A DNA stretch of 64,000 bases from Trypanosoma brucei (GCA_000002445.1 AL929603.2:64001-128000); one strand, 5' to 3'; positions 37,120 to 61,500 are shown, counted from the stretch's first letter. The notes: a model not told the origin generated them from the letters alone. Translations and numbers: made by a program.

Positions 37120-38078
37120 TTCCACATATAAGATTCCTCAATATCGTTCACAAAATAAAAATAATTTCATTTCCTTCTGCATTCAGTTTCTCGTGTAGCA
37201 GTGTGTACTAATCATCCATAAAGTCTTTAATTTGCCAAATACATCATTACGAAACTATTTTCCACAAACAAATAAACAAACAAATCATTGGGACAATATC
37301 TTTGAGGAATTTCCTTCACTATATTTGCAGTTCAGTAGTAATTAAAATACACTTTTCTGTATAATTCAACACATGGTGGAATTGCAAAGAAATGTGATGG
37401 TACTTATAATCAATAAGTTCCCAATTTTCCTCATACGGTCTCTTTTCATGCCTTTACATCCTTATATAATTCACAGAGAATTACTGCAATTTCTTTCATA
37501 TGCTTTCAGGATTCCATAAGTCACAATACAAATAATATATATATATATTTGCTTCTACATAATTTGGACATAATATTGCTTAACATATAAATTATCACAA
37601 ACCTATGATATTACACTCCTCCTAAGAATAATAGAATCAAATTATTTCTATTTTGCATCATTACATGAAGCTTTGGAAAAGGAAAAAAAAGAATCAAACA
37701 AAAGGTAATGTAAAGAACACAGTTTTTTAATACAGATTATAACTTGTTTGTGAATTTCAGATGCAAACACAATATGTTCAAACAGGGAAACAGTAAAGGA
37801 TGTTACTGGTGATGTAAGCACAAATTAACCAAAAATAGAAACATAAATAAAATTGAAACTTATAAAAACACAAATATATATGATACAAATATTTACCATA
37901 TATTATAATTCGCCACCCTCACACTTGAATTACAAAGAGTGCATAACACGCATATGTGGTAAAGCTAATACAACTCGAATATACGTATGCGCCATCTCCT
38001 TAACATAATCATTCTAATATTTAGTATGTATGTCTGTGTGTGTGTAGAAATGATGAAATGTAATCGACAGTCCCTTGA
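37120..38078. repeat. A-type segment copy 3, partial: first approximately 0.95 kb only. Homology ends after gaaatgatgaaatgtaat.
   Basis: Collinear with 1..900 and 15931..16850, then diverges into unique sequence at about 38079. Confidence 0.7.
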
Positions 38079-41000: not shown

Positions 41001-43974
41001 GCGTATCAAGTAATGTCACATCATGATGATTACAGTGCTGCTTCACAACTTCAGCATAGGGGAATGGCGGAATCGTTTCAAATGCGGAACAAATAATGAG
41101 AGTTCAATTCTTCCTTATTAAATTCCCGTGGCCGCATAAACTGTATGCAGGTGAAACATTTATCAAGGAAACTGTATTTACGAGACTTAATTCAAGGAGA
41201 GATTAGGAATGCAGATACTTCATGCTTTCACTGAACAGCCGTACATCAGACCTGTCAACTCCATTAAGTGACTGAGGAGTTAACCCATTGTAAGGTGTAT
41301 GAACATGGAGACATGGTTTGAGCAACCAACAACCAGTATTCAGTATAGTTGGCTTATGTGAAACCAAAACATCTGCATTCGTGTATGTTCAACCTGACAG
41401 CTTCGCTTACCCTTTTGTTAAGCTATAAGACACTCTTCCAGGTGTATGCAACAAAATACAGTTATGCGCGTGATCTTGCGAGTGAGGATGATAGTCTACA
41501 GGAAACATGCGAAACAGGAAAAATATATATTGAGCTGATCTGAATCCATTTGATGCAGAATGTAAGAGCACAACCCAGCTGATATTTTCGTATTAACCAA
41601 CACACTAAAGAATGATTTAAGAAGCAGGAAAAAGTTGATCCAAACAGCACTTAGCCTGGAGTTGTTTCCAATGCTCCTAGATAATAATGTGTATGATGCG
41701 TATGGGGGTTCATTACTTTTTGAGGGAGTATGAAAAAACGATGATGGGCAGAAACTGTTCGGAAGATGACAATCTTTACCATTCTTATTATTAGGTTGAC
41801 ATCCATTTTGTGATGGTTTAATGGTTTAGTATGTATGAGTGCTTTATGCTCGCTTTATTTGAACACAAACTCATGCATGCGCGAAAATTGTGAAGCTGCA
41901 TACCCACAGATATCAATTAAGGGCATCAAACTTTTGGTGTAAAGCAGTCATTTTCATATGAAGTTAGCATTCCGAAACAGTTACTTGGGAAAGGAAATTG
42001 AAGGTCCACCACCCTTACCAACATGCATTTTATCTGTATTTGTTGTCAAAACGGAGGTCACATATAGTCGCTGCGTAATATATTCCCTTACTTATACTCA
42101 TTAATATCCACTGACGCCTCTCTTTTCTCTCTTCGTGTGCGGGAGGCACTGCCGTCATACAGAGAGAATCGCAACATTGGATAAGAGAATGGATCTCGAG
42201 TGTGTTAGAAGGCAGTCAGAGACGATAGCAGTTGTGACGGTTGTGGTGTTCCGGGTGAATTTGGATTTGATTAATGATGAACCGCTTCGTGTAGCGGTAA
42301 GAGACCCTGATGAAACTGCATGTAAAGAAACTGGAGGAAGGGTTCACAATGGTCATAAACACGTCTTATGGATGTGATAATGTATGAAGTGAAAGTGTGG
42401 AAACAAGGTTGAGAGAAATCATGTGTGAGACTGTATTGGCCAATTTTTACAAAATGGGGATGAATTCTCTCCGTGTATGAATGCTGCGTTGGAGAGTGCA
42501 AATGATGCGTTACATGTACAAGCTGGAGAGGATGGCGACTGACGTCTGAAATTGGAATGGATGTAAAAGGCATAAAGCATTGTACCGATGCGAAAGCAAA
42601 GGGCGCATGCATGTCAACGATAGGAAACTAGTTTAGACTCTTTTTGTTCGGATATGCTTTGGCGGAAACAGTGTGCATGCAGGACCCCCGAGCATCCGAC
42701 AAAGGGATATAGAAGCGTTAACGATAGTCTCCAACTCATGGAAATCCGGCGGACATCAACTCCTCTCAATTATAAGTTACTTCGAGCTTATCAATTTCTT
42801 CCTTATGAGGTCCCATTTCCTCCACACACTTTTGCATCACAACAATGGAGAGAAGGAGAAAATGTTGAAGCGCATTATGCACTGTATCAAACTTGTTTGT
42901 GTATGTATTTGGTCTCTTCTGATATGAGTCTAACCGTTACCAACATGTTACCGGCTCTAGGAATCCATGAGCATGATGTACATAAAGTATCACGAACTTT
43001 GTGCGCGGCCCGATGTTCCACTTAGTGAGCGTCATCAAACTCAATGAGCAGAACCACATGAAAGGAGGAAATTGTGTATTTGTATGCATACATGTGTGTC
43101 AATATGTTGGTTTGTAACACTGTGGTGAGAGTAAATGGAAGTATCTTTTAATATGGAGAACACCACACATAAACACACCTCAGTGTATCGCCAAGAAATA
43201 ATGGCGGAAACGGGTCAGACAATGTTGCAAAGATATCAGTCTCAAATATATACATATGACAGTAGCCATTCTCTGGTCACACAACAAGGAAGAGCAAGGT
43301 GTAGCGTTGATTGGATGTAACGGCAGGATGAATCATTTCCTTTAGAGGACAAATGAGCAGATGCGCGTGTGCAGTCCGAACCGGCTAACTGTGAATTGCA
43401 TTTCATTGAGAAATATTTTGTTAATTCAGCAGGAAGAACGCCTTCTTTTTTCACTCTCATTTTACGCAGACATGACGGTCGATAGAGGTTTGTACCAGCT
43501 GATGCATTTACAACCGTGCACAGTGATAAATGTTAACTGATTATTCCTGTCATGTGACTCTCGAGACGTTACCAGGTGACCATGGAATTATCTTAAAGAT
43601 GTTTGGATAGAAGGGCGTCTGATAGGTGCCGGTCTTCTAATACGGCGAAAAGCTTGTAATGCATGCGTATGTTTGGTAAGATGCGAGGAAGCCATTGATT
43701 GTACTGTTGTAGTTAGCTGTTGCGCGCCGGATTGACTGGGTGTGGTTGTAGCACATCTCAGTAATGAAGTGCAGAAACCTCTCATCCATCGCAGTGATCG
43801 GCAAATATGTCTTAATTAAGTTGAATGGCAGGTGGTGTCTATGCATATGCTGGGTTGCTCGACTGCCAGAAACATGGATTAAAGCAGCAAAAGGTGTTGT
43901 CGTTTGTTTTTATCCATGCATTTGTTCAAACTATCTGTGCATCAATGAGAACTATCATTGTCTTTCAGTACAAC

Positions 43975-44027
43975 CAACCTTTCTATACCATCACTAACAA
44001 CTCTCCTCTTCCATCCATCATTGCTAG
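43975..44027 (+). promoter_or_regulatory. Polypyrimidine tract plus AG upstream of the adenylate cyclase ATG; a putative trans-splice acceptor.
   Basis: ctttctataccatcactaacaactctcctcttccatccatcattgctag lies 45 to 95 nt upstream of the ATG at 44072. Kinetoplastid mRNAs are trans-spliced downstream of poly-Y tracts. This is inference only. Confidence 0.3.
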
Positions 44028-44071
44028 ACAAGATAACTTTCTCGATTAATTTCATTCATGATCGCACGCGT

Positions 44072-46958
44072 ATGCCGGCTGACGAAGCACAGCAAGCTCC
44101 ACCACCTCTCCCAATTACCTTTACGACACCAACACTTTTCCTGTTGCTGTTAGTGTTACTTCAACTTTATCAAATATGTGTTCTTGTTAACGCAGATGAC
44201 AGTAGGAAAGTTACGGTGAAGGCAATATCTCTGTTATACAGTCGAAAATGGGACCTACAAGTTATCAATGCCGTGAATGCCGGTTTCAATGCCTCCCTGG
44301 TTGCTCGGAACTGGACGGTGGCACCCGGGGTGAATGTTGAAGTTGCCCGCTCCCCCTCATACGGCATCGATTCGGTCCAGTTTCTGAATGATTACTTGAA
44401 GCCACTAAATGGCGATGACGCGAACAAGCTGTGCAATACATTAGAAGGGAACCAACTTGTTGGATTCGGTCCCATAACTGAGTGTCGATGGGGCATGAGG
44501 GATGTCTGCCGCATTTTTACTTCCTGCTCCTTGAGGCCACTGGCGAACTTATTACCCCAGTACGTTATGCAGTGAGTCACTTACATGTGCTAAAGCAGGG
44601 TTTCATGTATCTTGATGGGCTCCCGGGAGGTAGTGAGGCATATAATCAGGCAGTGGATTTCATATAGCGCATGGGGTACAGTTTCTGTTGTGTTTTCACG
44701 GGGGAAGACAAAGCGGGTGGCCAAGGTGGATCACCTGAGGAATTCGACGCCGTATGGGATGAGTTTGCTGGGGGAAATCCACAGGCTGTGATTATGTTTG
44801 CCGCCATGAAGCCTGATGCCAAAAAAATATCTCGTGAGGTTGGTGTCTGATCCGCGTACGGAAGATACGTTCGTGCTAACTCCGATCTTCTTGCAGAAAT
44901 CAATTGTGAGCATCTGGAAGGAGACATTGGAGGAAGCGAATGTTCCGTTTGTTCCCCATCGTGTGATTCAGACGGGGTCAAATCCTCTCACTAAGGAAGA
45001 TTATATCGACGCGGTAAAACGCTTTCAGACTGAAATGAGGAACTACTTGACTGAATACAAGGAGTGGAGTGGCTTCAATGATGCAGATCACTTTCTAAAG
45101 AGTGACGCGCACGGGGAGCTGACGATTAATGGCTGGATTACTGGAGAGGTGTTGGCGCGGGCACTGCGTAGCCATGGCTGGATGAAAAATCGCACAGCCT
45201 TCATTGAGTCGCCGTTACGTGGTTGATGGCATAGTGATCGGTGATTTTGGAGGTGAGTGCGATAGCTTTACCACTGCAAATGATGCCACTTGCCGCTGCA
45301 ACCGTGGCAGGAAGGACGTCTACATGAGGGAGATTGCTGAGAATTACCGCCTGCAGCCGCTTGTTGGCAGGCATATTATGACAACTTCCCTACAGTGTTA
45401 TATCGATCCCTCATTCCTATAGATACCACTCACCGGCCTCACCGTTGATATGGAAGATCACGAGGAGCTTCTGAGATGTTCCACACAGTTTGAAACTGGT
45501 GTGTCCACCACGACCTCATCTGGGAAAGCTGGCGAGATGAACAGTTTCTTCCTTCAGAAGGTTGTTACGGATATGCAGAAGGTTTCCGACGAGCTCAACA
45601 CATTACGACGGGAAAGGATAGTCGCTGCTGTGTTCGGCATCGTGACAAAAGCGGTGCTCGGTCTGACATTCATTGACCCTATGACACCAATCCCCCATCT
45701 GAACAGTTTCAGCAGGAATGTGATCCACTTGTCCCCAACAATGGAGCAGCAGCTATGCATGTTAGCGAGCTCCCTCTCCAGCATTCGTGCTGACTTCCAC
45801 CAATCGCGTTGTAAGGGGCGGTGAGGCGTCCGCTTTCATTGATGTGCTAAGAAAGACACTGCTCACATTTGGCTTGAACCTCAGCTCTACCGTTGTGTTG
45901 ACTGCAGGGGACTCTGTTGGAGAGTATCTTTCGAAAAGTGGTAGCACTTTTATCATTGGACTTGCTGTTGATGGCATTGTGGTAACTGAAGAGCATCTAC
46001 GTACTCGCAACAAGGTGCGCGTATTTGTCCAGTTCTCTGGCATTGCGCTGCTGTAAAATGAGTTTGTGCAAGCCTTCAACAGTAGCGACGGCGCCAAGCA
46101 CCTTTTGTTCGCAACAAGTTTGCTTTGCTAGCCAGACATCAACACGACATCGTAGACTGTGCAACGGTTCCACGAGGCGGTACGTGAGGTGGAAAAGTGG
46201 ACGCCGCTGTCGGTGCTGGGTTTCGCCACGGGTAGACTAATACAAGAGAATCTGCAAAACATGGAAAGGGTAACGTCCGGCCTGCTGCTCGATTTTTTCT
46301 TCAACCAAACAGTAATCACCATTGATGACATGCATTATATGGGCCGTACAAACATTATGATTGCATAATCAACGTTGTTGTTGCCGCTGATGACTGCGTG
46401 ACAAACTTCGGTGCTACGGATATAAGTCTGTGTGTGTGTGTGTGATCAATGGCACGTGCGCTACGGTCAGATGCACCAACACTACAGAATGCGATGTCGC
46501 CGTCGTTGATGTGCGCTGTCCCCAACGGTAATGCCCTCAACCCCTCACAACTTGCTGGTGTGGTTGATGACTCTTTATTCGTTGTGGCTCTCGCAATATG
46601 TCTAAGCTTACTTGCGTCATTCCCTCTCCGTGGCACCCGTGATAACGACAGCGCGCCGAAGGAGCCAACGGACCCTGTGACACTAATATTTACTGACATT
46701 GAGAGCAGGACTGTGTTGTGGGCTGCACACCCTGACCTGACGCCTGATGCCGTTGCAACACATCACCGTCTGATTCGTTCACTGATTGGGAGGTATGACT
46801 GCTACGAGGTGAAAACTGTTGGTGATTTGTTCACAATAGCGAGCAAGAGTCCCTTCGCTGCCGTCCACCTCGCACAGGAACTACAGCTGTGTTTCTTGCA
46901 TCATTCCTTCCGAAGGGGCTGCACAATTTCTGACAGCGCCGAATGGACAAATGCATAA
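44072..46958 (+). pseudogene. GRESAG4: Receptor-type adenylate cyclase (GRESAG4/ESAG4-like) pseudogene. Retains the signal peptide, the extracellular domain (with at least 4 frameshifts), the transmembrane helix and the first approximately 100 aa of the cyclase catalytic domain. Truncated after ...LQLCFLHH.
   Basis: The N-terminus MPADEAQQAPPPLPITFTTPTLFLLLLVLLQLYQICVLVNA is a signal peptide. Later pieces are read in shifting frames across ORFs 43958..44575, 44816..45226, 45450..45824, 45787..46056 and 46159..46368. ORF 46449..46958 carries a hydrophobic helix (LFVVALAICLSLLASFPL) followed by VTLIFTDIESRTVLWAAHPDLTPDAVATHHRLIRSLIGRYDCYEVKTVGDLFTIASKSPFAAVHLAQELQLCFLHH. This is the characteristic N-terminal half of the trypanosome class-III cyclase domain. 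It then diverges (SFRRGCTISDSAEWTNA*) and stops. Confidence 0.75.
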
Positions 46959-49022
46959 TATTACTGAGCGCTGCTTACGCACGCAGCTTATATAATGTCA
47001 CATGCGTTGTGATTTGTAGAGGGGAGTGGGCCACCAGAAATTAGGTCATTTTAATGTCAATAAGTTTTTACCGCTTGTTGGAGCCGTCATTCCCCGCACT
47101 TAACCTTTTCGAACCGAGGAGTTGGTAAAAGACGGCCAATCAACGGTATCGTCGACACCATGGCCATCAGTACGGGATTTTACATACGGTAACGAAGCGT
47201 GGGCATATGTTTTTCTTTAAACGTCATTTTTATTTTATTTTTCTGTACATTGTTGCTGTCACTTCTATGAAGTATAGCCAGAATGTCAGAGTAGTGCATT
47301 TGTGTGCAAAACAAAGAAAATAATACTCCCTTTGTTTTTCTCTCCCTCTTGGGTTGTATGAAAAGAGGGGGCTCCTGTTTGTAGGATGACAAGAGCTGTT
47401 TTGTTTCTTTCCTCAAAAAAAATTACATGCTCCATAGTTGCTCCAATATTCCCATCCCTTCATTGGAAAATGACCCGACGGCTCCGTCCATGTGAGTGAA
47501 GCGGTGTCCCTGATATTTGCCCTGATGCTTTTTCTTTTTTCCACCGTGGAACCTGCACTGCACTGCACTTGCGTTCCCTCATCCCCTCTTACAGTTATCC
47601 GTTTCACTTCCCCTGTTGAGGAATGCGTATTTCCAACCGTGCGAGATATCAAACAGTAAATCTGTCGGACAAACAAAAGGCTGAGAAATTCTTCACATAA
47701 ACTTATGAGCTTCCACCACTGAGGCACGCACGCTCACCAACACCAACAAAGTCAAGCAAAAGTCGCTGCATATTAATACTCAATGGCGCCATAATGTTCC
47801 CTTTTCCTTTTTCCTTCCGTTGGGGTTACACAACACTTGTGGGAACCCGCTTCACTTCGTCCTTTTCCAATTATGAAGGTAACTGTGTTTTGTTTGCCAC
47901 ACTTCCGCTTGTTATTTCTCCAACTGGTTTCACTTTCAGAAGTCGCGTGTACACCACTTGTGGAGGAAATATTACATTAAGCAAAACCAACAACGAAAAA
48001 AATGGCAATACATTCTAAAACATTCCCTCAACATTGCAGAACTCATGAAAGGAACCATGGTTACTGCCACCAGGCTAAGCAAAGACCAAAAGGCTTTTGA
48101 AATGTGTTTTCGAATCGAATGTACCACTGGTATTTCTTTAACATGCAAACACAACACAAATCACTGCATACACAAACACGAGTGCCAAGCTTCTTATAGA
48201 GATATTTCAATACCTGAAAAAGGGACCGGGACGCAAAGTTTGGGAATGGAATTTCCCCACCCGTAACGGTGATTATCTAAGACGCTCAATCAACACATTT
48301 CCGCCTGTCCACAGTTAATCGGAAACCGTAGTGCCCATATGTCTCCCTAATTACTGTTGTCCCTTCAGTTTTCACAGTAGATGTTTCAATTGGTTTCTGC
48401 GGCCGAGGTAAATAAAGCTTATGTGTCATATCCGGGAGGTGTTTCCATGTGTCTTCGCTTTCCGTTTTGTCACTGCGTTTGGGCTCACGCAATGACATTA
48501 ATTGAAATTTCAGGCCACTACCATATATGGGTGGCTCGTGGAGAGAGTGAGGATTGGGATTATTCTAACAGCTTTGTGGTTGTGTGTGTCGTGCTTTTGG
48601 AAAATATTGCAACCAATGAAAGGGAAGGCAAGTGTCACCTTACTTTCCATGCTGCGACATCAATGCATAAGAATTATATGCTAGTTGCTCTGCGAGGGAA
48701 GGCCGTGAAGGCGAAGGTTAGCTTCCGGTTTAAGGAAGTGTAGAGACTTCCTGATACTACTGTCAGAAACTACTGTTGCTGCGTGCTTCAGGCACTGGGT
48801 CAGTAATTCATAAATACAACAACGAGAATAAAATTAATCCCTTGTGGCTGCTAAGCGTGTAAGCAACTGAGAATAATAAACAGTATATTTTTGCCACACT
48901 TTATTGATTTCTTTATATATACAAAAAACCTCATTACATTTATCATTTCTTTTGTGCCCAAAGACTGCTGAATGAAGGTTAGGATTACTGACCATAACAC
49001 ATTTTGGCATGCACCTCAATTA

Positions 49023-49055
49023 CTTCCTTATAACACTTCCCCCCCTCGTTTGATT
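49023..49055 (+). promoter_or_regulatory. Polypyrimidine tract upstream of the LRR gene ATG; a putative trans-splice signal.
   Basis: cttccttataacacttccccccctcgtttgattc followed by AG dinucleotides at 49062 to 49090. The ATG is at 49137. This is inference only. Confidence 0.3.
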
Positions 49056-49136
49056 CATCGCTTAGCTCTATTATTAAAAAAGAAAAAGCATTTCCTCAAC
49101 ACTCAGCACCTCAAGGAATCGGAAACGGGAACTACA

Positions 49137-52100
49137 ATGTCAGGAAACCAAGGAAGAAAGCGACAGCGCAGCTCATCACCTGAGCAGTCAGAAGCTTTAA
49201 AGGAACCATCAACTACTGAACAAAATAAACTCACCACCGTTACAATCACCGAAGAGACGCGTGACGCCGGTAATGATGAAACTGTGATATCATTACTGAA
49301 TGAGCATGAGAAATTGATTAAACAAACGACACGGCTGGAAAGCAGTGTGAAGGCACTTAAATGTTTCATGAGTAATCTCACAGCTATGAGTGGCGAAAGG
49401 CAAGGTGGTGTGTGTGATGACACCGAATGCATACATAGAGTAACATTATATAATGCTGCTGATAATGCCTTCAGTGACGAAGGACTATATGAAGGTGCTC
49501 TTTCCTCACTCTGTGGCCGTATTCAAGCTAAGAAATTAACCATCACGTTATCAAAGGGTTGGAAATTTAACTCACGACAAGTCAGTAAGCTAAAGCAGTT
49601 AGAAGAGTTACGCATTGAATATCCGCGTGGAAAACTTGTGAATATGATATCTTTGAAGAGACTGCAAATGTTGAAAAGGCTTTGTCTCAGGAGCAACAAT
49701 ATTGACAACAATGACGGTCGTCACTTATTCAATATTGGAACATTGGAGGAGTTGGCTATTACTGATACCATGCAACTGACAAATATCAGAGGAATCTCTC
49801 GCTTGACTAACCTGAAGTGTCTTGAGTTAAATTCCACAAATATTGACGACAGCTGTGTGGAGGAAATAAGTGCATGTGCTAAACTGTCCAAACTGTGTAT
49901 ATCTAAATGCAACAATATCACAGACGCGACACCAATTTCACAACTTGCAGCGCTGGAAGAGTTGAATCTAAGCAATTGCCACATAACGAAGGGAATAGGA
50001 ACACTTGGCATGTTGTTGCGACTGCGTATGCTTGACTTGAGTGGTGTTCCTGTGGAAGATAATTGTCTGAAGGATTTGTGTGACTGTGGGTCTCTTGAAA
50101 GGCTGAACATTTCTTATCGTATTCAGCTGACAGATATCAATCCACTCTCCAATGCCACTGCTATTGAGGAATTGAACCTTAACGGTTGTCGCCGAATAAC
50201 ACGGGGGATAGGCGTTGTGTGGGCATTACCAAAGCTCCGTGTATTGCACATGAAGGATGTGCACCTGAGCGAGCCATCTCTCGATTCAGTTGGGACTGGT
50301 GGACCACTTGTAAAGGTCAGTCTTGATAACTGCGCAGGCTTTGGTGATATGACACTCTTATCCAGCATTGTTACACTCGAGGAGCTGAATATTCAAAAAT
50401 GTGCTGACATCATTAGTGGTGTGGGTTGCCTTGGTACACTGCCATACCTGCGTGTGCTTAACATAAAGGAGGCACACATCTCGTCCCTTGACTTTACTGG
50501 TATTGGTGCCTCAAAATCCCTTTTACAGCTCAATATGGAGAGTATCACGGGACTGAGTAATGTGGAAGCACTCGCCAACATTTTGACTCTGGAAAAACTA
50601 AGCCTTCACGGCTGCACGGGTATTGACGCAGGAATTGGATGTCTTGGAAACCTGCCACAGCTTAAAATGTTGGACCTGTCTGGCACAAATACCGACAATG
50701 AGTCTCTCAGAAGTTTATGCCTATCGCAGACAGTGGTGTCCCTCAACCTTTCCCATTGTTGGAAAATGACAAATGTGTCCCATATTTCAAGCCTCGAAGC
50801 ATTGAATGAACTGAATCTGAGCAACTGTTTTGGAATAAATGCAGGATGGGAAGCACTTGAAAAACTTCAGCAGCTACATGTGGCAATCCTCTCGAATACA
50901 CATATTACTGATAGAGACATATCCCATTTCAGCAACTGCAAAAACCTTATTACGCTTGATCTTTCTTTCTGCAATAAGTTACTTGATGTTACAGCTCTCT
51001 CTAACATCACTACGCTTGAGGAGTTGAATCTTGATAGTTGTTCAAACATCAGAAAAGGGCTGAGCGTTCTTGGAGAGTTGCCACGGCTTTGTGTGTTGAA
51101 CATAAAGGGTGTACAGTTGGAAGACTCAGTTATTGTTTCACTAGGGAATGGTAACTCATTTGTAAGGCTCAGTCTTGAGAACTGCAAAGGGTTTGGTGAT
51201 GTCGCGCCCCTCTCGAACCTTGTTACACTTGAGGAACTGAATCTCCACTACTGTGACAAAGTAACCTCTGGAATGGGAACACTGGGCAGGCTACCGCAGC
51301 TTCGTGTACTGGATTTGGGACGGACACAAGTTGATGATAATTCCCTTGAGAATATCTGCACATGCTCAAGCCCACTTGTATCATTAAATCTTTCGAATTG
51401 CAAGAAAATAACATCTATTTCTGCAATAGCTTCCCTTACAGCATTGGAGGAACTCAACATTGACAACTGCTGTAATGTAACATCCGGCTGGAATGTATTT
51501 GGTACACTTCACCAACTGCGTGTAGCCACACTGTCGAATACACGCACTAATGATGAAAACGTACGGCACGTTAGCGAGTGCAAGTCTTTGAATACACTCA
51601 ACCTTGCGTTTTGCAAAGATATAACAGACGTCACAGCACTTTCTAAAATTACCATGCTTGAGGAGTTGAACCTTGATTGTTGCCATAACATCAGAAAAGG
51701 TATTGAAACTCTTGGAACGCTTCCCAAGGCACGTATCCTAAGCATGAAGGAATGTTACATGGGAGACGGATATGCGCAACAATGTTCCATCCTTGGGAAT
51801 AGTAAGTCACTTGTGAAACTGAATCTTGAGAGGTCAAGAGGGCGCATATCTGTGAAAGCTCTGTCTAACGTTGCGACGTTGGAGGAATTGGTACTCGATC
51901 ATGCACGGAAAGTATGTTGTATACCGTCATTTTCCTGTCTACCGCGCCTTCGAGTACTGAATCTGAAATATACGGATATCAATGGTGATGTAACTAAAAA
52001 TATTTCCGAATCAAAATCGCTGCGATCACTCAACTTATCACATTGCAAATGGGTAACTGATATATCAGTATTATCTTCCTTATTGACACTGGAGGAGCTG

Positions 52101-53318
52101 AATGTTAACTGCTGCAATGGAATACGAAAAGGCTGGGAGTCGCTCGGAAAGCTGCCTCTACTACGTGTGGCAATTCTATCTGATACTAAAATCACCGCTA
52201 AAGATATAGCTTGCCTCAGCAGTTGCAAAAAGCTGGTGAAACTAAAGTTCTTCCAGTGTGAGAAGTTGTCAGATGTTACGGTGGTGTATAAAATTCAATC
52301 ACTGGAGGAGCTGATAGTTACGAGCTGTTCAGACGGCCTCAAGGGACTGAATGCCCTTGGTACACTCCCACGGTTGCGTTTTCACCATCTGCGAAATGTG
52401 AGAGGTAGTGATATATCTGTTGAATCTATTGGGACGAGCAAATCTCTCGTGAGGCTTCATATTGAAGTGGGCGAGGAGTTGACAGATATAACACCCCTCT
52501 CCAACATCACGTCCCTTGAGGAATTGTCATTGCGGGATTACCGTAAACCCCCGGAAGGAGTCGGGACACTTGGGAAACTGCCACGGCTTAAATCGCTGGA
52601 TCTCGGTTTATCTCGCATTAGCGATAGCACACTTTATTGTATTTGTCTGTCTCGATCAATTACGTCACTTAACCTAGACTCCAGTTGGAAACTAACAGAC
52701 ATATCTCATATATCAAATCTTACGGCACTGGAGGAATTGAATCTGGGAGGATGTTACTACATAACTTCAGGCTGGGAAGCACTAAGCGAATTACCACGAC
52801 TTCGTGTGCTCAACTTGGAATTCACCAGAGCTACGACGCGTGACGGTGGATACTATATCAGCAGATGCAAATACCTCGTCACACTCAACCTTGAATTGTG
52901 TGATATGACCGATGCTTCATGTCTTGCTAATATCAAGACACTGGAGGAGTTGCATATAGGAGGATGCGACGAGCTAACGCAGGGGTTTAGTGCACTTTTC
53001 ACTCTTCCACAGTTGCGCATTCTTAACTTGATTTGTTCTCTTATTACAGATGAAGATCTCAGGGAAATTCAACCACCCCATACCATTGAGGAGCTCAATC
53101 TTTCTTATTGTGTGGAGCTTAATGATATTACACCACTTGGGAGGATAAAATCAATTAAAAAATTGCATCTCCGTCAGAGACATGATGTCAGAAGGCCTAC
53201 AGAAGGATTCAGGAGTCTTTTGGAATTGCCATGTCTTTCTTGGGTTGACCTAGACAACGTGTATGGCTGGTCTGATGTTTCTTGTGAACTGAGAAAAAGG
53301 AGAGTACATATCCGTTAA
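49137..53318 (+). CDS. LRRP: Leucine-rich repeat protein (LRRP-like), 1393 aa from the ATG at 49137. The ORF-track start at 48972 gives 1448 aa. A basic N-terminal region (GNQGRKRQRSSSPE, NLS-like) is followed by about 50 LRRs arranged in super-repeats of about 70 aa. There is no RING finger.
   Basis: A continuous 4.3-kb ORF. The L..L.L..C..ITD...LS.L..LEELNL periodicity runs from about 49614 to the C-terminus. The higher-order unit (LEELNL.NC..I..G...LG.LP.LRVL.L..T.I.D..L..I...KSL..L.L..C..ITD...LS...T) recurs about 17 times. The first in-frame ATG after the poly-Y tract is 49137. Confidence 0.8.
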   Translation: MSGNQGRKRQRSSSPEQSEALKEPSTTEQNKLTTVTITEETRDAGNDETVISLLNEHEKLIKQTTRLESSVKALKCFMSNLTAMSGERQGGVCDDTECIHRVTLYNAADNAFSDEGLYEGALSSLCGRIQAKKLTITLSKGWKFNSRQVSKLKQLEELRIEYPRGKLVNMISLKRLQMLKRLCLRSNNIDNNDGRHLFNIGTLEELAITDTMQLTNIRGISRLTNLKCLELNSTNIDDSCVEEISACAKLSKLCISKCNNITDATPISQLAALEELNLSNCHITKGIGTLGMLLRLRMLDLSGVPVEDNCLKDLCDCGSLERLNISYRIQLTDINPLSNATAIEELNLNGCRRITRGIGVVWALPKLRVLHMKDVHLSEPSLDSVGTGGPLVKVSLDNCAGFGDMTLLSSIVTLEELNIQKCADIISGVGCLGTLPYLRVLNIKEAHISSLDFTGIGASKSLLQLNMESITGLSNVEALANILTLEKLSLHGCTGIDAGIGCLGNLPQLKMLDLSGTNTDNESLRSLCLSQTVVSLNLSHCWKMTNVSHISSLEALNELNLSNCFGINAGWEALEKLQQLHVAILSNTHITDRDISHFSNCKNLITLDLSFCNKLLDVTALSNITTLEELNLDSCSNIRKGLSVLGELPRLCVLNIKGVQLEDSVIVSLGNGNSFVRLSLENCKGFGDVAPLSNLVTLEELNLHYCDKVTSGMGTLGRLPQLRVLDLGRTQVDDNSLENICTCSSPLVSLNLSNCKKITSISAIASLTALEELNIDNCCNVTSGWNVFGTLHQLRVATLSNTRTNDENVRHVSECKSLNTLNLAFCKDITDVTALSKITMLEELNLDCCHNIRKGIETLGTLPKARILSMKECYMGDGYAQQCSILGNSKSLVKLNLERSRGRISVKALSNVATLEELVLDHARKVCCIPSFSCLPRLRVLNLKYTDINGDVTKNISESKSLRSLNLSHCKWVTDISVLSSLLTLEELNVNCCNGIRKGWESLGKLPLLRVAILSDTKITAKDIACLSSCKKLVKLKFFQCEKLSDVTVVYKIQSLEELIVTSCSDGLKGLNALGTLPRLRFHHLRNVRGSDISVESIGTSKSLVRLHIEVGEELTDITPLSNITSLEELSLRDYRKPPEGVGTLGKLPRLKSLDLGLSRISDSTLYCICLSRSITSLNLDSSWKLTDISHISNLTALEELNLGGCYYITSGWEALSELPRLRVLNLEFTRATTRDGGYYISRCKYLVTLNLELCDMTDASCLANIKTLEELHIGGCDELTQGFSALFTLPQLRILNLICSLITDEDLREIQPPHTIEELNLSYCVELNDITPLGRIKSIKKLHLRQRHDVRRPTEGFRSLLELPCLSWVDLDNVYGWSDVSCELRKRRVHIR

Positions 53319-56300
53319 TATTTGATCCATTGCTTCACTTTGTATAATTTAGCAACTTATTGCTGAGAATACGTTATTAAATTTAACAGCCAGTTTGAGT
53401 GGTTCGCTCACTGTAGGCACTATTACTCAAACAGATACCAGTAACAATTCATACGGATGATATTGTATGTTACACTATCTTAAATACGAGAAATACGAAG
53501 ATCTCATTACAGTCATGTAAGCGTTTAACAAATTAGTAAGTCATACCAATCATATATTGTGAAGAATAAAGAACAGTTAGGAAGGTGCGTGTGCGTGTAT
53601 GTGACAAGCTTTTTTCTCAATGGAAATTTTGATTTTAGTTGTAAGCGTAGTAATTATTGTATTATTCTCGTTCATATTACAACTATACCAAATGAACATA
53701 TCATTATATTGTATGCCATTCTAACTTTATGACTACACATCCACACACATATATATTGAATTATTATTACTATTTCTATCGTTCTTATTGTTATTACATG
53801 AAACACAACATTCACATTTAATTTTTACTCATAGCCACACCTGAAAAGTAAAAGCACTCAACATTCTGCAGTACTGTATACCTTTCAATGATATGAGGAG
53901 GTGAAGTTTATATACCATTAAAGTATAGTGAATATATTTCATTATTCTTATTATTATTTGCTTTACTGAAAGAAATGACAGAGTGACTTTACAATAAATT
54001 ATATCAGAGCAGCATCTTAACCACCAATTTGCTACACAGGAAGAGGATAATACAACACATCACGTGTCTCGTGATTCTTTTTTACACTTGCCACTGGTAT
54101 ATCTACATTCTCAAACAGTGCGATTGAATATTCTCGTTTCATTAAAATATTATATTATAACTTGTTGTATTTGTTTGGTTTTTTAATAACATAATTTATT
54201 TTATTACATTTCCTTTCAGAATTATTTGGGCCAAACTTTTGTGAAGATGTCATACAATCTGAATTCCCTTGCGCAGCAAAGGGTTGTGTACCGCCTTAAC
54301 CCATTAACATTTGTGCTACATGTGCATGGGAAAGTGTATTAAACATTTCACTGGTTTTGGGAAATATTATTTTCTTTCTTACAACATGATGCCTCAGAAG
54401 AACTGAAGGCGAGAGCAGATCCTTTCATTCATTTTATTTTCCTTTTCTCACCGTATCCGTATATGTTTATGACTTTCCAGAAAACACTGCTGGGGTAAAT
54501 TATGTATTTCTTCATATTTACTTTTTATTTGACAACAACAAGAAAGGGATTTCCTCCTCACACACTTAAATTAATTAGACACTGCTGTTAACTGATAAGT
54601 TACAGACAGCCGCACATTTAAGTTACACAAATCCACACCGATTCGAAATAGTAAAATATCAAATATTATGTATTTATTTGAGAAAAAAAAGAGACGAAAA
54701 GAAGCGCTGCATCTGAAGCAAGATGCATGTGAGTTCGAAGAACAACTGTCATTTGAATATCATATCCCCAAATTGTTTTGATTACATTATTAGCAGTAAA
54801 TGCTTACGGAACTTGGGAAGTGAATGACTACTGAAATTAGAAGCATGAGGACGCACCGCGATGGCACATGAAAGTAACATTGGTGGGATTTTTATATATT
54901 GGAAAGTGGAGTGGCTTTAAGGTGTTTTACATGATGTTTAGTTGGAGATTGAAATAATTCAAAAAGCAGTGAAAGACTGTTATGATACAGGAATCTTTTC
55001 GTTTACTAATTTCAAGCTCACTCCCGCGACGCACTATTTTCGGTTTGCATTGCAGGAGGTGGTATGATATATGCAACCGCTTATTTCTTATTTATTTATT
55101 TTTGCGAGTTTATATAAGTGTGGTTTGGTGGCGTGGAAAATTTTAGCATGTGGTTAATGTCTTTATGACAAGAAACTGCTCTGCTCGAGCGATGGTATTG
55201 GAAGGTTAAATATAAATTATATGTTTTATGAGTTAATCAAATGCTGAATGCTTCAACTGACTCACTCTTCAAACCAAAACACTTTCTCAGCTTTTCCACT
55301 CTCAGCTAAAAATGTAGTTCAGTTTCCAAACAGCACACCACATCTCATTCACCATCGGGTAAAGAGATATTTGTATGGGCAACACGAAAGTGGAGAAGTG
55401 CAGAAAGTAGAAATAAAGAATATATATATATATATCGAATTATGTTGGAACTGCAGGTATCATTCAACCTAAGAGTAAAAACACCCTTCCTTCTGTTGTG
55501 AGCCGCAACCATGCCGTGATGAAGTTACAAGTGGAAGGAGTTGACTCAAATCATTCATCACCTAATCTCTGTAATGTGAATATGTTTGTTGAGAGATATT
55601 CGTATGTTAATGAGAGACCATTATGCAGAGGGAAGAACAGCCGACGACTGCAACCTAAAACCCGTAATTTGCGGACTGTGATAAACTTTAATAGTTTCAT
55701 TTTATTATGTAAAGATGGCATCAGCAGATTATACTTGTAAGCTGTTTGAAGTCAAAACAACGATACACGGAAGGGAATGTACAAGTGGTGATTTAAATCG
55801 TATGTTTATGAGAAATTTGTAGTGTGAATCAACTGTTGAAATATGTTGTGCGACATTAACACCAGATTTTTTTTTTTCATATTATTCTTCTTTTCTTTTT
55901 TTTTTTGCTTGTCTGTCGAACAATCTGAGGTTTAGTTGATATATTCCTGAGTTTCATCACATGTGTTGCTGTTTATATAATACTAATCGTTACAAACTAA
56001 ATATCTGCAGTAAGTATATTAAAAGCATACGATTTGTCACCACCTCTTGTTTAATTTCTCTTTATTCAAACGGCACTTTCTTTTAATCTTGTAAATAATT
56101 TTTTTATCGTTGTTTCATTTGTTTGTACCCTTCATCCTCTGCGCACAGTGTTGTATTTATTTGCTTCTACACGCTCGCAAAAAAAAAAATATATATATAT
56201 ATATATCATTTTTAAACAAATCGCTTTTGTGACTGATGTTTGTTCGGTTTGCATCGTATTATAAGTGGAATGTAAGATTCGTTGATTAAACATTTCATGG

Positions 56301-57989: not shown

Positions 57990-58517
57990 TTAATCAAGAA
58001 CAATACTCAACATTTTGCTTCAGGACACCAGACACTTATTCTGGGAGAAAAGCGTCTGAGGGAACGTGAAGCAAGAGGTGATAATGTTTTCAGTTTATAT
58101 GGCTCCGTATGCAATTCAAAGTGGAGTGACATTATAATGGACAATGGAACTCAAATGCTGGGCATGAAGTTTGTTGATGGAACGCGTGCTGATGATATAA
58201 TGTGGAAAGATGAAGAAGTTAATGTCGTCCCCAAAATTGAGGAAACTTTTGAACATAAGCCGGAACGCACGGGAAGGAGGTGAAGCAACGGTTCCAACAT
58301 CTTAAATGGAGTGGTCGTACTCACAGTTTAATATTTAAATTCACAATGACATTCTCATTCAGAGAAAGGACTGGAGACTGAAATGTTGTGGAAAGAAAGC
58401 TCTGCGCTTGGCCAGCTGAGGAAACTCGAATACTAAGACACGCACCAAATCCTTACATTGTGATTGGAAACTCCAGAATCAGTAAGTCACTGGCCATCGG
58501 CTCACTTCTCCTTCACA
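57990..58517 (+). pseudogene. RHS: Highly degenerate RHS pseudogene, 5' fragment up to the hot spot (…YIVIGNSRISKSLAIGSLLLH).
   Basis: Weak but collinear similarity to the RHS region ...LKGVYDSIYNATWGYVESG...LGMKVFNG...WTKEEVDVSHTP...LIGTPGIGKSFSVGSLLLY. The window has YGSVCNSKWSDIIMDNGTQMLGMKFVDG...MWKDEEVNVVPKIEE...IVIGNSRISKSLAIGSLLLH. The reading frame is broken by stops. Confidence 0.55.
58506..58517. repeat. Target-site duplication, 5' copy, of ingi-2 (ttctccttcaca).
   Basis: These 12 nt precede the ingi 5' end (ccctggcgatgcc at 58518). They are a 12/12 match to 63724..63735. Confidence 0.85.
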
Positions 58518-61500
58518 CCCTGGCGATGCCGGCCACCTCAACGTGGTGCCAGGGTCCAGTACCCCGTATCATCGGGGGAAGCCAAGAGCCAGCAGAGTTC
58601 CTTTCATGGGGAACACTGCTGTGCTCCGGCTACGGCATCATACAGCACAGGGATCAGCAGCGTCTTGCTGGGACACCGTTTTTCATTTGTCGGTCCCTGG
58701 GCACGTGCCAGCGTGCCATCAGCAGTATCATCCGCACTAAGATGCTGCTGTCCGGTGATGTGGAAGAGAATCCCGGCCCGTCGTTGCGCGGGATGCAGTG
58801 GAACTGCGCCGGGCTATCTCAAGGAAAGAGATTAGCACTCCACAAAACCCTTGTTGATGAGCGGATCGCCTTTTGTCTGTTGAGCGAGACAAGGATGACG
58901 CCTGGAGAGGCGGCTTGCTTTAGCGTTGCTGGCTACCAACATCACGGAATAGCTCGTAACTGCAAAGGAGGTGGTGTATCAATACTAGTGAGGGAGGACC
59001 TACCAGTCGAGACCGGTATGGCCGTTGTTGGTCGCATTGAAAAAGTGCATGCAACAATTCACCTTGCACGTGGAACGGCGCTGACTGTCACGTCGGCATA
59101 CATCCCACCAGAACACACCTTCACGGCAACTGACCTAGATACGCTTCTGACGACTGACGGTGCCCAGCTCATCGGTGCAGACGCTAACGCACACGCGTTG
59201 GCATGGGATCGCGCGAGCCCGCCAAATACCAAGGGTGAAACCCTCACACAGTGGTGCATTGACAACCAGTTTCTGGTATGCAACACTGGTGAGTGCACCA
59301 GGTACGCGCGCCACTACGGGGAGTCCACCCCTGATGTGACACTGTCAAGGAATTGCACAGTGTACACGTGGACATCGCTGTATTCTCCCGATAGCGATCA
59401 CCATCACATATTTTTCGACGTTATCGTTGGAGACGACACAGGTGCACTGAGTTGCCCGCGGCTTCAAAAGCCCATGTACGCATGGCTAAAAGCTAACTGG
59501 AGGAATTTCCGTCTCAAGGTTGACGAGCTCTGCAGGAAAATTGGTAGAGAGAAGAATGTCAACACCCTGGAACAGAAATTGAGCTCCGCCATCCGCATTG
59601 GACACCTGAGCTCGCGAAACTCGATGAAGAGAGCGCTGGATGCGGACCCTCCCACCGAAGGGAAAAGTTGGTAGCCACGCGTAAGCAGATCCTGGACCGT
59701 ACCCCAAAGAAGAGATGGAGCACGCTATGCTCCAGACTTGCGGTGTCAGACCGCTGCAGTTGGCACATTGTCAAGAAGGTATATGCGCCACGACCACTAA
59801 CCACACCGGCTGTACTTGTTGATAACGCGGCCATCACGGACTACTGTCAAGCTGAGAGGTTCAGTAAACTGTACTCGTCCCGCGCAAGAAGGCACCCCGA
59901 CTCACACCCACCGGCACCAATAAAGACGATAGCGAGTGAGTTCAGTCCCATCACGATGGCTGAACTACGGAGATCGATCAAACTGCTACCGAGTGGATCC
60001 GCAGCCGGACCTGATTGCTTATACAACGAGGCACTGCAACATCTCGGTAGAACAGCGCTGAATGTTGTTCTGAGGCTATTCAATGAGAGCCTACGAACGG
60101 GAGTCGTGCCGCCTGCATGGAAGACTGGTGTTATCATCCCCATCCTGAAGGCCGGAAAAAAGGCGGAGGACCTCGATTCTTACAGGCCTGTGACGCTCAC
60201 GAGCTGTCTCTGCAAAGTCATGGAGCGCATAATTGCCGCGAGACTTAGAGACACTGTTGAGTCCCAGCTGACGCCGCAGCAATCAGGCTTTCGCCCCGGA
60301 TGCTCAACGCTCGAACAACTCCTGCACGTCCGCGCTGCCCTCTGCCGTCCCACGCACCAATCTCGTACGGGTGCTGTATTCGTTGACTACGAGAAGGCAT
60401 TTGATACAGTAGACCACGACAAAATTGCGAGGGAAATGCACAGAATGAAGGTATCATCCCACATTGTGAAGTGGTGCGTATCATTTCTGAGTAACCGAAC
60501 TGGCAGAGTGAGATTCAAGGAGAAACTCTCCAGAAGCAGAACATTTGAGCGAGGAGTGCCACAAGGAACTGTCCTTGGCCCAATCATGTTCATTATTGTC
60601 ATGAACTCGTTGAGCCAACGCCTTGCAGAGGTGCCGTTACTGCAGCACGGATTCTTTGCAGACGACCTAACGCTACTTGCGAGGCACACAGAGAGGGATG
60701 CCATCAACCACACACTACAGTGCGGTCTAAACGTGGTGTTACAGTGGTCAAAAGAGTACTTCATGTCTGTCAACGTAGCGAAAACAAAGTGCACACTCTT
60801 CGGGTGTATAGAGCGCCACCCCCTTACGTTGCAACTGGACGGCGAAAGAATAGGAGCTGACAGGACACCGAAGCTTCTAGGAGTAACATTCCAGTGTCTG
60901 CAAGGGATGGCAACACATGCGGCCGAAACGAGACGCAAGATGGACTTCCGACTACTGCAGATAGCAGCCATCTCAGCTTCTACATGGGGGCCAAGACGAC
61001 AAGTACTGAGAACTTTTTATCTAGCACTCGTACAGGCACACACCATGTATGGCATTGAGGTATGGTACTGGGACGCTTCGGAACGAAGTCGCGACCTCCT
61101 TGCATCAGCACAACACAAAGCCAGTCGCATCATAGCCGGCATACCGCATGGGACGCGCAAAGAGGACTCTCTGCTGGAAGCAAACCTCCTGCCACTCAAG
61201 ACGGCCACTCTTGTGCGCAGCATGAAATTCATGCTGATGTGTGAGTCACGAGGCGGATGTTTGCGGCGCAGTGCTGAAGAAGTATACCACAGCAAACACC
61301 CAGTCAGAGTCTTACATTCCCGCATCATGCGGTCCTACCCCCACCTCCGCATTGAGCCACGCGAGCACCCACTAGAGACATCGACGCTCCGCCACAGCTG
61401 CCGACCGATATTTCACACGCAGATAAAGCCTGTGTGCGCTGATGACCCTGACGATGTCAAAAGGGAGGCTTCCGAAAAGTGGATTGAACGACATTTTGCA

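What the first reader, a model, noticed from the sequence alone, without database searches (positions are those of the whole stretch)
49137..53318. LRR protein with an unusually regular higher-order repeat of about 70 aa (3 LRRs) reiterated about 17 times, and a basic NLS-like N-terminus.
What the sequence shows:
- Almost the entire 4.2-kb ORF is a periodic array.
- Successive units keep conserved Cys positions (…LS.C..ITD…, …L..C…) and LEELNL cores, while they diverge at the nucleotide level.
- The first 200 aa are non-repetitive. They carry RKRQR and a predicted coiled segment (EHEKLIKQTTRLESSVKALK).

This regularity suggests expansion by unequal crossing-over followed by purifying selection. 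The cysteine-containing LRRs resemble the F-box/LRR (cysteine-containing, CC-type) class rather than extracellular LRRs.
Basis: partly seen in the sequence, partly recalled or inferred. Interest (0 to 1): 0.5.

Follow-up and report, generated by a model that had tools for sequence, protein, structure and literature searches.

The report
Known trypanosome LRRP gene, nested repeats
This is an already annotated Trypanosoma brucei gene for a giant leucine-rich-repeat protein (LRRP family, relatives of ESAG8); its very regular 71-residue triple repeat is real and is itself nested in a 213-residue repeat, but the gene and its family are known and its function is still only inferred.

Summary
ORF 48972..53318 (+) is intact. 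It gives 1448 aa, or 1393 aa from the ATG at 49137. [quoted passage not shown]

- **Periodicity:** lag 71 aa is far above both shuffle controls. A unit HMM finds 16 full units plus 2 degenerate N-terminal ones.
- **Unit anatomy:** each unit holds three distinct LRR types, a/b/c, of 23/24/24 aa.
- **Further repeat level:** units U6-U17 form a 3-unit, 213-aa (9-LRR) super-repeat (permutation p about 1.5e-4).
- **Age:** the repeats are ancient. Unit DNA identity averages 45%, synonymous sites are saturated, and TRF finds nothing. Unit number is fixed in all long paralogs. The 71-aa unit and the N-terminal module also occur in shorter T. brucei, T. congolense and T. vivax LRRPs.
- **CC-type label:** only partly right. 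Cys sits at the Asn position and a CxxITD motif is present. However, LRR_6 fails its threshold, repeats are 23-24 aa, and there is no F-box or RING.
- **Function:** probably a soluble, possibly nuclear, protein-binding solenoid, by analogy with nucleolar ESAG8. This is inferred, not shown.

Verdict: already known, low interest.

The parts
48972..53318 (+). Complete LRRP ORF from the first ATG (1448 aa including a 55-aa possible 5' extension). Identical to XP_846398.1 / CAB95328.2.
49137..53318 (+). ORF from the second ATG (1393 aa, MSGNQGRKRQR...). This is the start used for chromosome 2 paralogs and for clone CAD21866.1 (99% identical).
49155..49169 (+). RKRQR basic motif (aa 7-11 of the short form). 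It fits the monopartite K-K/R-x-K/R NLS pattern. Relatives also have basic N-termini.
49275..49376 (+). Amphipathic helical segment (aa 47-80) with a heptad-like hydrophobic spacing. It is conserved in kind in T. congolense and T. vivax LRRPs. Model confidence is low.
49437..49877 (+). Degenerate N-terminal LRR rungs (aa 101-247), including the weak unit-HMM hits and unit U1.
49878..53291 (+). Sixteen regular 71-aa units, U2-U17 (aa 248-1385). Each is a-b-c = 23+24+24 aa: LxxLxLSxCxxITDIxxLSxLxx / LEELNLxxCxxIxxGxxxLGxLPx / LRVLxLxxTxIxDxxxxxIxxxKS.
50727..53291 (+). Region with the 213-aa (3-unit, 9-LRR) super-repeat: U6-U8, U9-U11, U12-U14, U15-U17.
53292..53303 (+). C-terminal basic cluster RKRR (aa 1386-1389).
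48381..48743 (+). DUF1181 ORF (120 aa), 229 bp upstream of the LRRP ORF. The same pairing and spacing occur at a T. b. gambiense long-LRRP locus (L002 7208-7771 and 8001-12346).

Best explanation
This is the annotated LRRP gene of Trypanosoma brucei brucei TREU927 chromosome 1. It belongs to the 'long' (about 1400 aa) subfamily of the African-trypanosome LRRP family, to which the expression-site gene ESAG8 is related.

Shown here:
- It encodes a soluble protein with no signal peptide, transmembrane segment or GPI-type tail.
- It has a short low-confidence N-terminal module: a basic RKRQR motif, an acidic/Ser-Thr-rich stretch and an amphipathic helix.
- That module is followed by one uninterrupted solenoid of roughly 54 LRRs.
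- The solenoid is built hierarchically. Three distinct LRR types (23/24/24 aa) form a 71-aa unit. There are about 17 units. The last 12 units form four 213-aa blocks.
- The duplications are old, and unit number is now fixed among the long paralogs.
- Core positions are conserved. Substitutions among paralogs concentrate at the positions flanking the Cys/Asn site of each repeat and in the C-terminal units.

Inferred, not shown:
- The terminal basic motifs may take the protein to the nucleus, as for its nucleolar/cytoplasmic relative ESAG8.
- The solenoid may act as a protein-protein binding scaffold whose variable flank sets partner specificity.
- The N-terminal helix may mediate dimerisation.
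For: Identity:
- The exact 1448-aa sequence is XP_846398.1/CAB95328.2 on a 1,064,672-bp contig.
- Paralogs at 91-92% identity lie on chromosomes 1 and 2.

Repeat architecture.

Family-wide N-terminal module and 71-aa period:
- They occur in the T. brucei 836-aa and 610-aa LRRPs, the T. congolense 536-aa and 722-aa proteins, and the T. vivax 706-aa protein.

Structure:
- The AlphaFold2 model of aa 1-1200 has a beta-strand plus short helix every 23-24 aa from about aa 133.
- 866 of 1200 residues have pLDDT of 70 or more. Residues 1-130 are below 50.

Soluble protein:
- The maximum Kyte-Doolittle 19-residue window is 1.48, and both termini are hydrophilic.

Selection:
- dN/dS is 0.30-0.35 at scaffold positions and 0.43-1.33 at positions +1/+2 after the Cys.
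- Paralog variability peaks at unit positions 10, 12, 32, 33, 35, 36, 57 and 59, and in units 10-16.

Nuclear analogy, from the literature:
- Its nucleolar signal lies at aa 48-79 (PMC3166288).
- ESAG8 descends from chromosome-internal LRRP genes (PMC3605285).
Against: - No localisation, expression or interaction data for this gene were found in the searchable literature.
- The N-terminal 130 aa are modelled with very low confidence.
- The start codon is unresolved.
- Whole-gene dN/dS of 0.43-0.60 is only moderately constrained.
- Both T. b. gambiense copies examined are frame-shifted, so the subfamily may be partly dispensable.
- The gene lies among RHS genes, ingi elements and a cyclase pseudogene. 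Published chromosome-region definitions group LRRP, RHS, ESAG and VSG genes as subtelomeric markers (PMC5359979).
- The ESAG8 analogy is weakened because this protein lacks the RING finger that is diagnostic of ESAG8.
- Automated annotation of T. b. equiperdum homologues calls them 'paraflagellar rod component'. That points to a different location, if it means anything.
Confidence: 0.75

Rival explanations
1. Decaying or silent family member. The ORF is a recently duplicated copy in an RHS/ingi-rich, subtelomere-like region. It is kept open by gene conversion or youth rather than by function.
For: - Neighbours are RHS genes, an ingi-disrupted RHS, a degenerate ingi and a fragmented adenylate cyclase pseudogene.
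- Two T. b. gambiense long-LRRP copies carry frameshifts. They are annotated 'pseudogene' and 'LOW QUALITY PROTEIN'.
- Whole-gene dN/dS is 0.43-0.60.
Against: - A 4.3-kb ORF is open here, in at least four other TREU927 paralogs and in an independent clone at 99% identity.
- Substitutions avoid the hydrophobic core: scaffold variability is 0.086 against 0.136-0.259 elsewhere (p = 3e-8), and scaffold dN/dS is 0.30-0.35.
- The pseudogene partners in those comparisons inflate dN/dS.
Confidence: 0.15
2. Substrate-recognition subunit of a ubiquitin ligase, as in F-box/CC-LRR proteins such as SKP2, FBXL and Zer-1.
For: - SKP2 is hit at E 3.8e-7.
- Pfam LRR_Zer-1, LRR_At5g56370 and LRR_At1g61320_AtMIF1 match.
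- The repeats contain a CxxITD motif.
- The ESAG8 relative carries a RING finger (PMC3605285).
Against: - No F-box, RING, BC-box or other ligase-docking domain was found by Pfam in the whole protein or the N-terminal 181 aa.
- The N-terminal region has only four Cys, and His100 is not conserved among paralogs.
- LRR_6 is below threshold.
- Plant NLR and internalin LRRs match as well or better.
Confidence: 0.07
3. Surface or secreted LRR receptor or adhesin.
For: - Foldseek's best PDB matches are long extracellular LRR ectodomains such as GSO1, FLS2 and TLR7-9.
- Internalins are hit by sequence.
Against: - There is no hydrophobic N-terminus, no segment reaching a transmembrane-like hydropathy, and no C-terminal hydrophobic tail.
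- Cys at the Asn position and the absence of Cys-rich capping motifs are intracellular LRR traits (established LRR classification, from my own knowledge).
- The Foldseek hits simply reflect solenoid length: TM scores are 0.27-0.57 and identity is 14-22%.
Confidence: 0.03

Closest known systems
T. brucei LRRP family, long subfamily (XP_846398.1, XP_846402.1, chromosome 2 copies, Tb11.53.0001, clone 'LRRP1' CAD21866.1)
   Same: Identical to XP_846398.1. It is 91-92% identical to the chromosome 1 and 2 paralogs, 99% to CAD21866.1, and 73-74% to the Tb11.53.0001 group. All have the same N-terminal module and the same 18 unit-HMM hits.
   Different: Nothing essential; it is one of these genes. Paralogs differ mainly in units 10-16 and at positions flanking the Cys of each repeat.
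ESAG8 (expression-site-associated gene 8) and the RING-bearing LRRPs Tb927.1.3670 / Tb927.3.580
   Same: ESAG8 is an LRR protein of the same trypanosome lineage, and the literature derives it from chromosome-internal LRRP genes. It carries N-terminal basic targeting signals and is nucleolar/cytoplasmic. Here, as in expression sites, an adenylate-cyclase (ESAG4-like) sequence lies upstream of the LRR gene (PMC3605285, PMC4027811, PMC2567434).
   Different: From my own knowledge, ESAG8 is about 630 aa, much shorter. According to PMC3605285 a RING motif is diagnostic of it. No RING is found here. No ESAG8 sequence could be retrieved, so whether ESAG8 shares the 71-aa unit was not tested.
Short LRRPs of T. 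brucei (836 aa XP_951500.1; 610 aa Tb09.211.4980), T. congolense (536 and 722 aa) and T. vivax (706 aa)
   Same: They share the N-terminal architecture (basic start, amphipathic helix, degenerate LRRs). In all of them 71 aa is the top autocorrelation lag.
   Different: They give only 6-8 unit-HMM hits against 18 here. N-terminal identity is only 26-31%. No 213-aa super-repeat was examined or seen in them.
Cysteine-containing (CC) LRR class of F-box proteins (SKP2, FBXL, GRR1)
   Same: Cys at the conserved Asn position, a CxxITD motif, an intracellular setting, and weak but significant sequence matches.
   Different: Repeat length is 23-24 aa rather than about 26. LRR_6 is below threshold. One repeat in three lacks Cys. 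There is no F-box.
LRR proteins with super-motifs (ribonuclease inhibitor/NLR 28+29 aa pairs; small leucine-rich proteoglycan three-repeat super-motifs)
   Same: Higher-order repeats made of several non-identical LRR types, produced by duplication of multi-LRR blocks (my own knowledge; super-motif literature listed).
   Different: Different LRR classes and unrelated proteins. Here there are three nested levels (about 24, 71 and 213 aa) and about 54 repeats in one array.

Membership tests
African-trypanosome LRRP family | Significant full-length sequence similarity to annotated LRRP proteins | tested here: met
   Exact match to XP_846398.1. 73-92% identity to other long LRRPs.
African-trypanosome LRRP family | Shared N-terminal module (basic motif, amphipathic helix, degenerate LRRs) outside the generic LRR region | tested here: met
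   Exhaustive phmmer with aa 1-221 finds T. brucei and T. congolense LRRPs aligned from about aa 13-47 onward, with E 3.9e-19, 3.3e-13 and 2.5e-5. T. vivax P0086 has the same layout.
African-trypanosome LRRP family | 71-aa a-b-c triple-LRR unit | tested here: met
   Lag 71 is the top autocorrelation lag here and in all five relatives tested. Unit-HMM hits are spaced about 70-71 aa apart.
ESAG8 proper | RING (C3HC4) zinc finger near the N-terminus | tested here: not met
   No Pfam zinc-finger or RING hit in aa 1-181 or in the whole protein. There are only four Cys before the LRRs.
ESAG8 proper | Location in a telomeric VSG expression site | tested here: not met
   The window holds RHS genes, ingi elements and a cyclase pseudogene. 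No ORF of 120 aa or more resembling a VSG or another ESAG was seen upstream, and there is no second LRRP fragment. Telomeric or 70-bp repeats were not searched for.
ESAG8 proper | Nucleolar localisation and PUF1 binding | not testable with these tools
   Known for ESAG8 only from the literature (PMC4027811, PMC3166288).
CC-type LRR / F-box-LRR proteins | Match to the canonical CC/RI-type repeat profile (Pfam LRR_6) above threshold | tested here: not met
   12.4 bits, E 0.18, gathering cutoff 23.4.
CC-type LRR / F-box-LRR proteins | Cys replacing the conserved Asn, with a CxxITD-like motif | tested here: met
   10/17 a-type and 14/17 b-type repeats have Cys at that position. c-type repeats do not.
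CC-type LRR / F-box-LRR proteins | Repeat length about 25-27 aa | tested here: not met
   a = 23 aa (15/17), b = 24 aa (13/17), c = 24 aa (13/17).
CC-type LRR / F-box-LRR proteins | F-box or other ligase-docking domain | tested here: not met
   Only LRR families are reported by Pfam, even at E up to 10.
Hook-complex/bilobe protein TbLRRP1 (Tb927.11.8950) | Same gene or protein as the cytoskeletal 'LRRP1' of the literature | not tested
   Inferred to be different from the gene identifier alone. TbLRRP1 is Tb927.11.8950 on chromosome 11 (PMC12222847), whereas this gene is on chromosome 1. No TbLRRP1 sequence was compared. The shared name with clone CAD21866.1 'LRRP1' appears to be a coincidence.

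The most novel reading that the evidence does not exclude
The long LRRPs could be an intracellular, diversifying recognition family. In this reading a rigid ~54-LRR multi-turn solenoid, with three nested repeat levels, displays paralog-specific hypervariable residues. These lie on the flank next to the Cys/Asn position, where dN/dS is about 1.2-1.3 in the closer comparison. The family is co-amplified with RHS genes and retroelements. It might act in the nucleus on variable partners such as RNA-binding proteins or retroelement products, loosely analogous to plant NLR LRR domains, which are its best PDB sequence match.
Probability: 0.1. Interest if true: 0.55.

Novelty: already known. Interest (0 to 1): 0.2.

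Why it matters
As it stands, this matters little. The gene is in the reference annotation, and the family and its link to ESAG8 are published.

The useful residue is descriptive:
- A precise repeat grammar, a-b-c = 71 aa and then 3 x 71 = 213 aa.
- Evidence that the 71-aa unit is shared by T. brucei, T. congolense and T. vivax.
- Fixed unit number in the long paralogs.
- A map of conserved versus variable positions.

These give clean boundaries for truncations. They also suggest which face to mutate if anyone studies this functionally uncharacterised family. That family sits beside RHS genes and is the presumed source of ESAG8.

Tried and rejected
- **DNA tandem repeats:** Tandem Repeats Finder on 48900-53400 found nothing. 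The repeat finder over the whole window found no repeat of 300 nt or more inside the gene.
- **ESAG8 sequence:** three word-indexed protein searches failed to return one. The queries were the full protein, the N-terminus and the 610-aa LRRP. A direct ESAG8 comparison was therefore impossible. The N-terminal word search returned only one fragment. The exhaustive representative search was needed to find the short LRRPs.
- **Primary papers not held:** Hall 2003 (chromosome I), Revelard 1990 and Bringaud 2002 were tried by guessed identifiers.
- **Other literature:** the remaining LRRP hits concern other genes, namely Tb927.7.7110, Tb927.7.7180, Tb927.3.580 and the bilobe LRRP1 Tb927.11.8950.
- **Paralog DNA:** The look-up of encoding contigs had no record for the TREU927 paralogs P0001, P0003 and P0004. 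dN/dS could only be computed against two frame-shifted T. b. gambiense copies.
- **Foldseek against PDB:** only generic long-LRR hits, with no specific relative.
- **RING remnant:** I considered C93-x4-C98-x-H100 and rejected it. His100 is not conserved among paralogs and the short LRRPs lack these Cys.
- **Signal peptide or transmembrane segment:** rejected by hydropathy.
- **Caveat on selection:** the 'hv8' site class was chosen after seeing protein variability that included one of the compared copies. Its omega above 1 is therefore circular and is not evidence of positive selection.


Full report
**1. What is at the coordinates**

The window has a single long ORF at 48972..53318 on the + strand (1448 aa). 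The finding's start, 49137, is the second in-frame ATG and gives 1393 aa beginning MSGNQGRKRQR.

An exact-sequence look-up shows the 1448-aa product is NCBI XP_846398.1 / CAB95328.2. [quoted passage not shown]

- Close paralogs (91-92%) lie on chromosomes 1 and 2.
- An independently deposited clone, CAD21866.1 'hypothetical LRRP1', is 99% identical and also intact.
- T. b. gambiense copies are 88% and 73% identical.

Either ATG could be used. Each is preceded by a pyrimidine-rich tract and an AG (48900-48963, and 49022-49064). Database annotations use both.

**2. The periodicity**

- *Signal strength.* BLOSUM62 autocorrelation gives one dominant lag of 71 aa. The score is 0.60-0.62 with 24.5% identity, followed by 142, 213 and 284. 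Single-LRR lags (23, 24, 47) score below -0.4.
- *Controls.* Residue shuffles give -0.82 +/- 0.05. Shuffling the order of the 45 individual LRRs, which keeps LRR periodicity but destroys their order, gives -0.46 +/- 0.14 with a maximum of 0.14. The three-LRR unit is thus real.
- *Profile test.* An HMM built from units 2-8 alone finds all later units (E 5e-9 to 5e-27) at 70-74-aa spacing. It also finds two weak N-terminal hits at aa 135 and 195.
- *Repeat types.* Splitting units into repeats gives three types:
  - a, 23 aa: LxxLxLSxCxxITDIxxLSxLxx
  - b, 24 aa: LEELNLxxCxxIxxGxxxLGxLPx
  - c, 24 aa: LRVLxLxxTxIxDxxxxxIxxxKS
- *Type distinctness.* Within-type identity over the first 20 residues is 26-41%. 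Between-type identity is 15-21%.

**3.

The unit-by-unit identity matrix shows that units three apart are the most alike. U6/U9/U12/U15 are 44-54% identical and U7/U10 are 54%, against about 33% for out-of-phase pairs.

Permuting unit order gives p of about 1.5e-4 for U5-U16, and none of 20,000 permutations reached the observed value for U2-U16. The same pairs have the highest nucleotide identity, 55-61%.

The hierarchy is therefore about 24 aa, then 71 aa, then 213 aa (9 LRRs). There are four such blocks in U6-U17.

**4. Age and mode of expansion**

- Units are 32-61% identical at the DNA level (mean 45.5%).
- Third codon positions match 33% of the time.
- Identical residues share a codon in 37% of cases, against 32% expected from the gene's codon usage.
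- The longest exact internal repeat is 15 nt, and TRF finds nothing.
- All seven long paralogs examined (six plus P0059) give the same 18 HMM hits.
- Shorter relatives give 6-8 hits, and 71 aa is their top lag. These are the T. brucei 836-aa and 610-aa proteins, the T. congolense 536-aa and 722-aa proteins, and the T. vivax 706-aa protein.

The 71-aa unit is therefore shared by T. brucei, T. congolense and T. vivax. The long form arose later, partly by 213-aa block duplication, and there is no sign of ongoing unequal crossing-over.

**5. LRR class**

Pfam reports LRR_4, LRR_14, the plant-NLR-type LRR_R13L1-DRL21, LRR_Zer-1 and two F-box-associated plant LRR families. The canonical CC/RI profile LRR_6 reaches only 12.4 bits (E 0.18; cutoff 23.4).

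Against PDB sequences, the best hit is the RPP1 TIR-NLR LRR (1.2e-10). SKP2 (3.8e-7) and internalins (5e-7 to 1e-6) follow.

The repeats have Cys at the Asn position and a CxxITD motif, as CC-LRRs do. They are 23-24 aa long, however, and every third repeat lacks Cys.

No F-box, RING or other non-LRR domain is detected. 'Intracellular Cys-type LRR' is fair. 'CC-type F-box/LRR class' is not established.

**6. Structure and topology**

An AlphaFold2 model of aa 1-1200, built with a 7-sequence paralog alignment, has mean pLDDT 74.6 and pTM 0.53.

- It shows a beta-strand plus a 4-9-residue helix every 23-24 aa, from about aa 133 to the end of the model. Isolated strands appear already at aa 101.
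- This extrapolates to roughly 54 rungs over the full protein.
- Residues 1-130 have pLDDT below 50, with helices predicted at 47-61 and 67-80.
- The global shape is not trustworthy at this pTM.

Foldseek against the PDB returns only generic long LRR domains such as GSO1, FLS2, TLR7-9, Roco, SHOC2 and internalin A.

Hydropathy shows no signal peptide, transmembrane segment or hydrophobic C-terminus. Basic clusters sit at both ends: RKRQR at aa 7-11 and RKRR at aa 1386-1389.

**7. Constraint**

- *Variability among the eight aligned long-LRRP sequences.* It is lowest at core positions (0.086). It is highest at the two positions after the Cys/Asn site (0.259) and at unit positions 10, 12, 32, 33, 35, 36, 57 and 59. 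It is also higher in units 10-16.
- *Invariant residues.* The EE of LEELNL and the R of LRVL are almost invariant across units and paralogs. This suggests a structural role, possibly an inter-rung charge ladder. That is my inference.
- *Whole-gene dN/dS.* Against the two T. b. gambiense copies, Nei-Gojobori dN/dS is 0.60 and 0.43.
- *dN/dS by site class.* It is 0.35/0.30 at scaffold positions and 1.33/0.43 at the post-Cys positions.
- *Caveats.* Both gambiense copies are frame-shifted. The variable-site classes were also defined after looking at the data. This shows purifying selection on the scaffold but does not demonstrate positive selection.

**8. Function**

Nothing specific to this gene was found in the searchable literature.

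- It has a 32-aa basic nucleolar signal at aa 48-79 (PMC3166288, PMC2424140).
- It is thought to derive from chromosome-internal LRRP genes that carry an NLS and a RING (PMC3605285).
- The present protein has basic motifs but no RING.

My best reading is a soluble, probably nuclear-targeted protein-binding solenoid, with the N-terminal helix possibly mediating self-association. Everything beyond 'soluble LRR solenoid' is inference.

The bilobe/hook-complex 'LRRP1' (Tb927.11.8950) appears to be an unrelated gene that shares the name. I base this on its chromosome 11 gene identifier, not on a sequence comparison (PMC12222847).

**9. Context**

- The window holds a 15.9-kb tandem duplication of an RHS gene cluster.
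- It holds an RHS gene interrupted in frame by an ingi retroposon (29070-35081, -), with the rest of the RHS at 27365-28843.
- A degenerate ingi lies at 58388-63084.
- Directly upstream of the LRRP, on the same strand, lie a fragmented receptor-type adenylate cyclase pseudogene (43958-46958) and a DUF1181 ORF (48381-48743).
- The DUF1181-LRRP pair recurs with the same 229-230-bp spacing at a T. b. gambiense locus, where a 610-aa short LRRP follows downstream.

**10. Verdict**

The object is an already annotated member of a known, functionally obscure family.

Noticed in passing
window 43958-46958 (+): A fragmented receptor-type adenylate cyclase (ESAG4/GRESAG4-like) pseudogene lies just upstream of the LRRP on the same strand. 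Pieces match PF25495, PF25493 and Guanylate_cyc. The order cyclase then LRR gene mirrors the ESAG4 then ESAG8 order of bloodstream expression sites described in PMC2567434.
   Followed up: partly
window 48381-48743 (+); L002 7208-7771: A DUF1181 ORF (Pfam PF06680, 273 bits) sits 229 bp upstream of the LRRP ORF. The same pairing, with a 230-bp gap, occurs at the T. b. gambiense long-LRRP locus on record FN554972.1. Only the C-terminal two thirds are conserved between the two loci (dN 0.26, dS 0.34). It is absent upstream of the other T. b. gambiense copy (L001, record FN554974.1). It may be a conserved LRRP 5' flank rather than a real gene.
   Followed up: partly
window 1-12200 and 15940-28100: A tandem duplication of about 15.9 kb (95-100% identity) carries RHS genes: 833-aa ORFs at 5904-8405 and 21854-24355, and RHS ORFs at 11795-13915 and 27365-28843. 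Shorter shared segments recur at 14566-15612 and 34052-37827.
   Followed up: partly
window 27365-35081 (-): This is a textbook 'retrotransposon hot spot'. A 2003-aa ORF fuses an RHS N-terminus (RHS_N plus the first 22 positions of the P-loop domain) in frame to a full ingi (endonuclease, reverse transcriptase, RNase H, zinc finger). The remainder of the RHS P-loop domain (profile positions 18-312) continues in the next ORF, 27365-28843.
   Followed up: partly
window 58388-63084 (+): A degenerate ingi-like non-LTR retroposon downstream of the LRRP is split into three ORFs (endonuclease; reverse transcriptase; a third without a Pfam hit).
   Followed up: no
L001 3001-7201; L002 8001-12346: Both T. 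b. gambiense DAL972 long-LRRP copies are out of frame relative to the window gene. Their lengths are not multiples of 3, and stops follow aa 148 and aa 496 when read straight through. This agrees with their 'LOW QUALITY PROTEIN' and 'pseudogene' labels. Whether this is real decay or assembly error is unknown.
   Followed up: partly
L002 16199-18031 (+): At the T. b. gambiense locus on record FN554972.1, a 610-aa short LRRP lies 3.9 kb downstream of the long LRRP. By its length it is probably the Tb09.211.4980 orthologue, but this was not checked. Long and short family members are thus neighbours there. No second LRRP fragment occurs in the present window.
   Followed up: no
database entries for homologues: T. 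b. equiperdum fragments in the same 90% cluster are named 'paraflagellar rod component'. This conflicts with 'LRRP' and probably reflects automated name transfer. No supporting literature was found.
   Followed up: partly
window 53292-53303 (+): A second basic cluster, RKRR, lies seven residues from the C-terminus. It is conserved in most long paralogs, so the solenoid is bracketed by NLS-like motifs at both ends.
   Followed up: no
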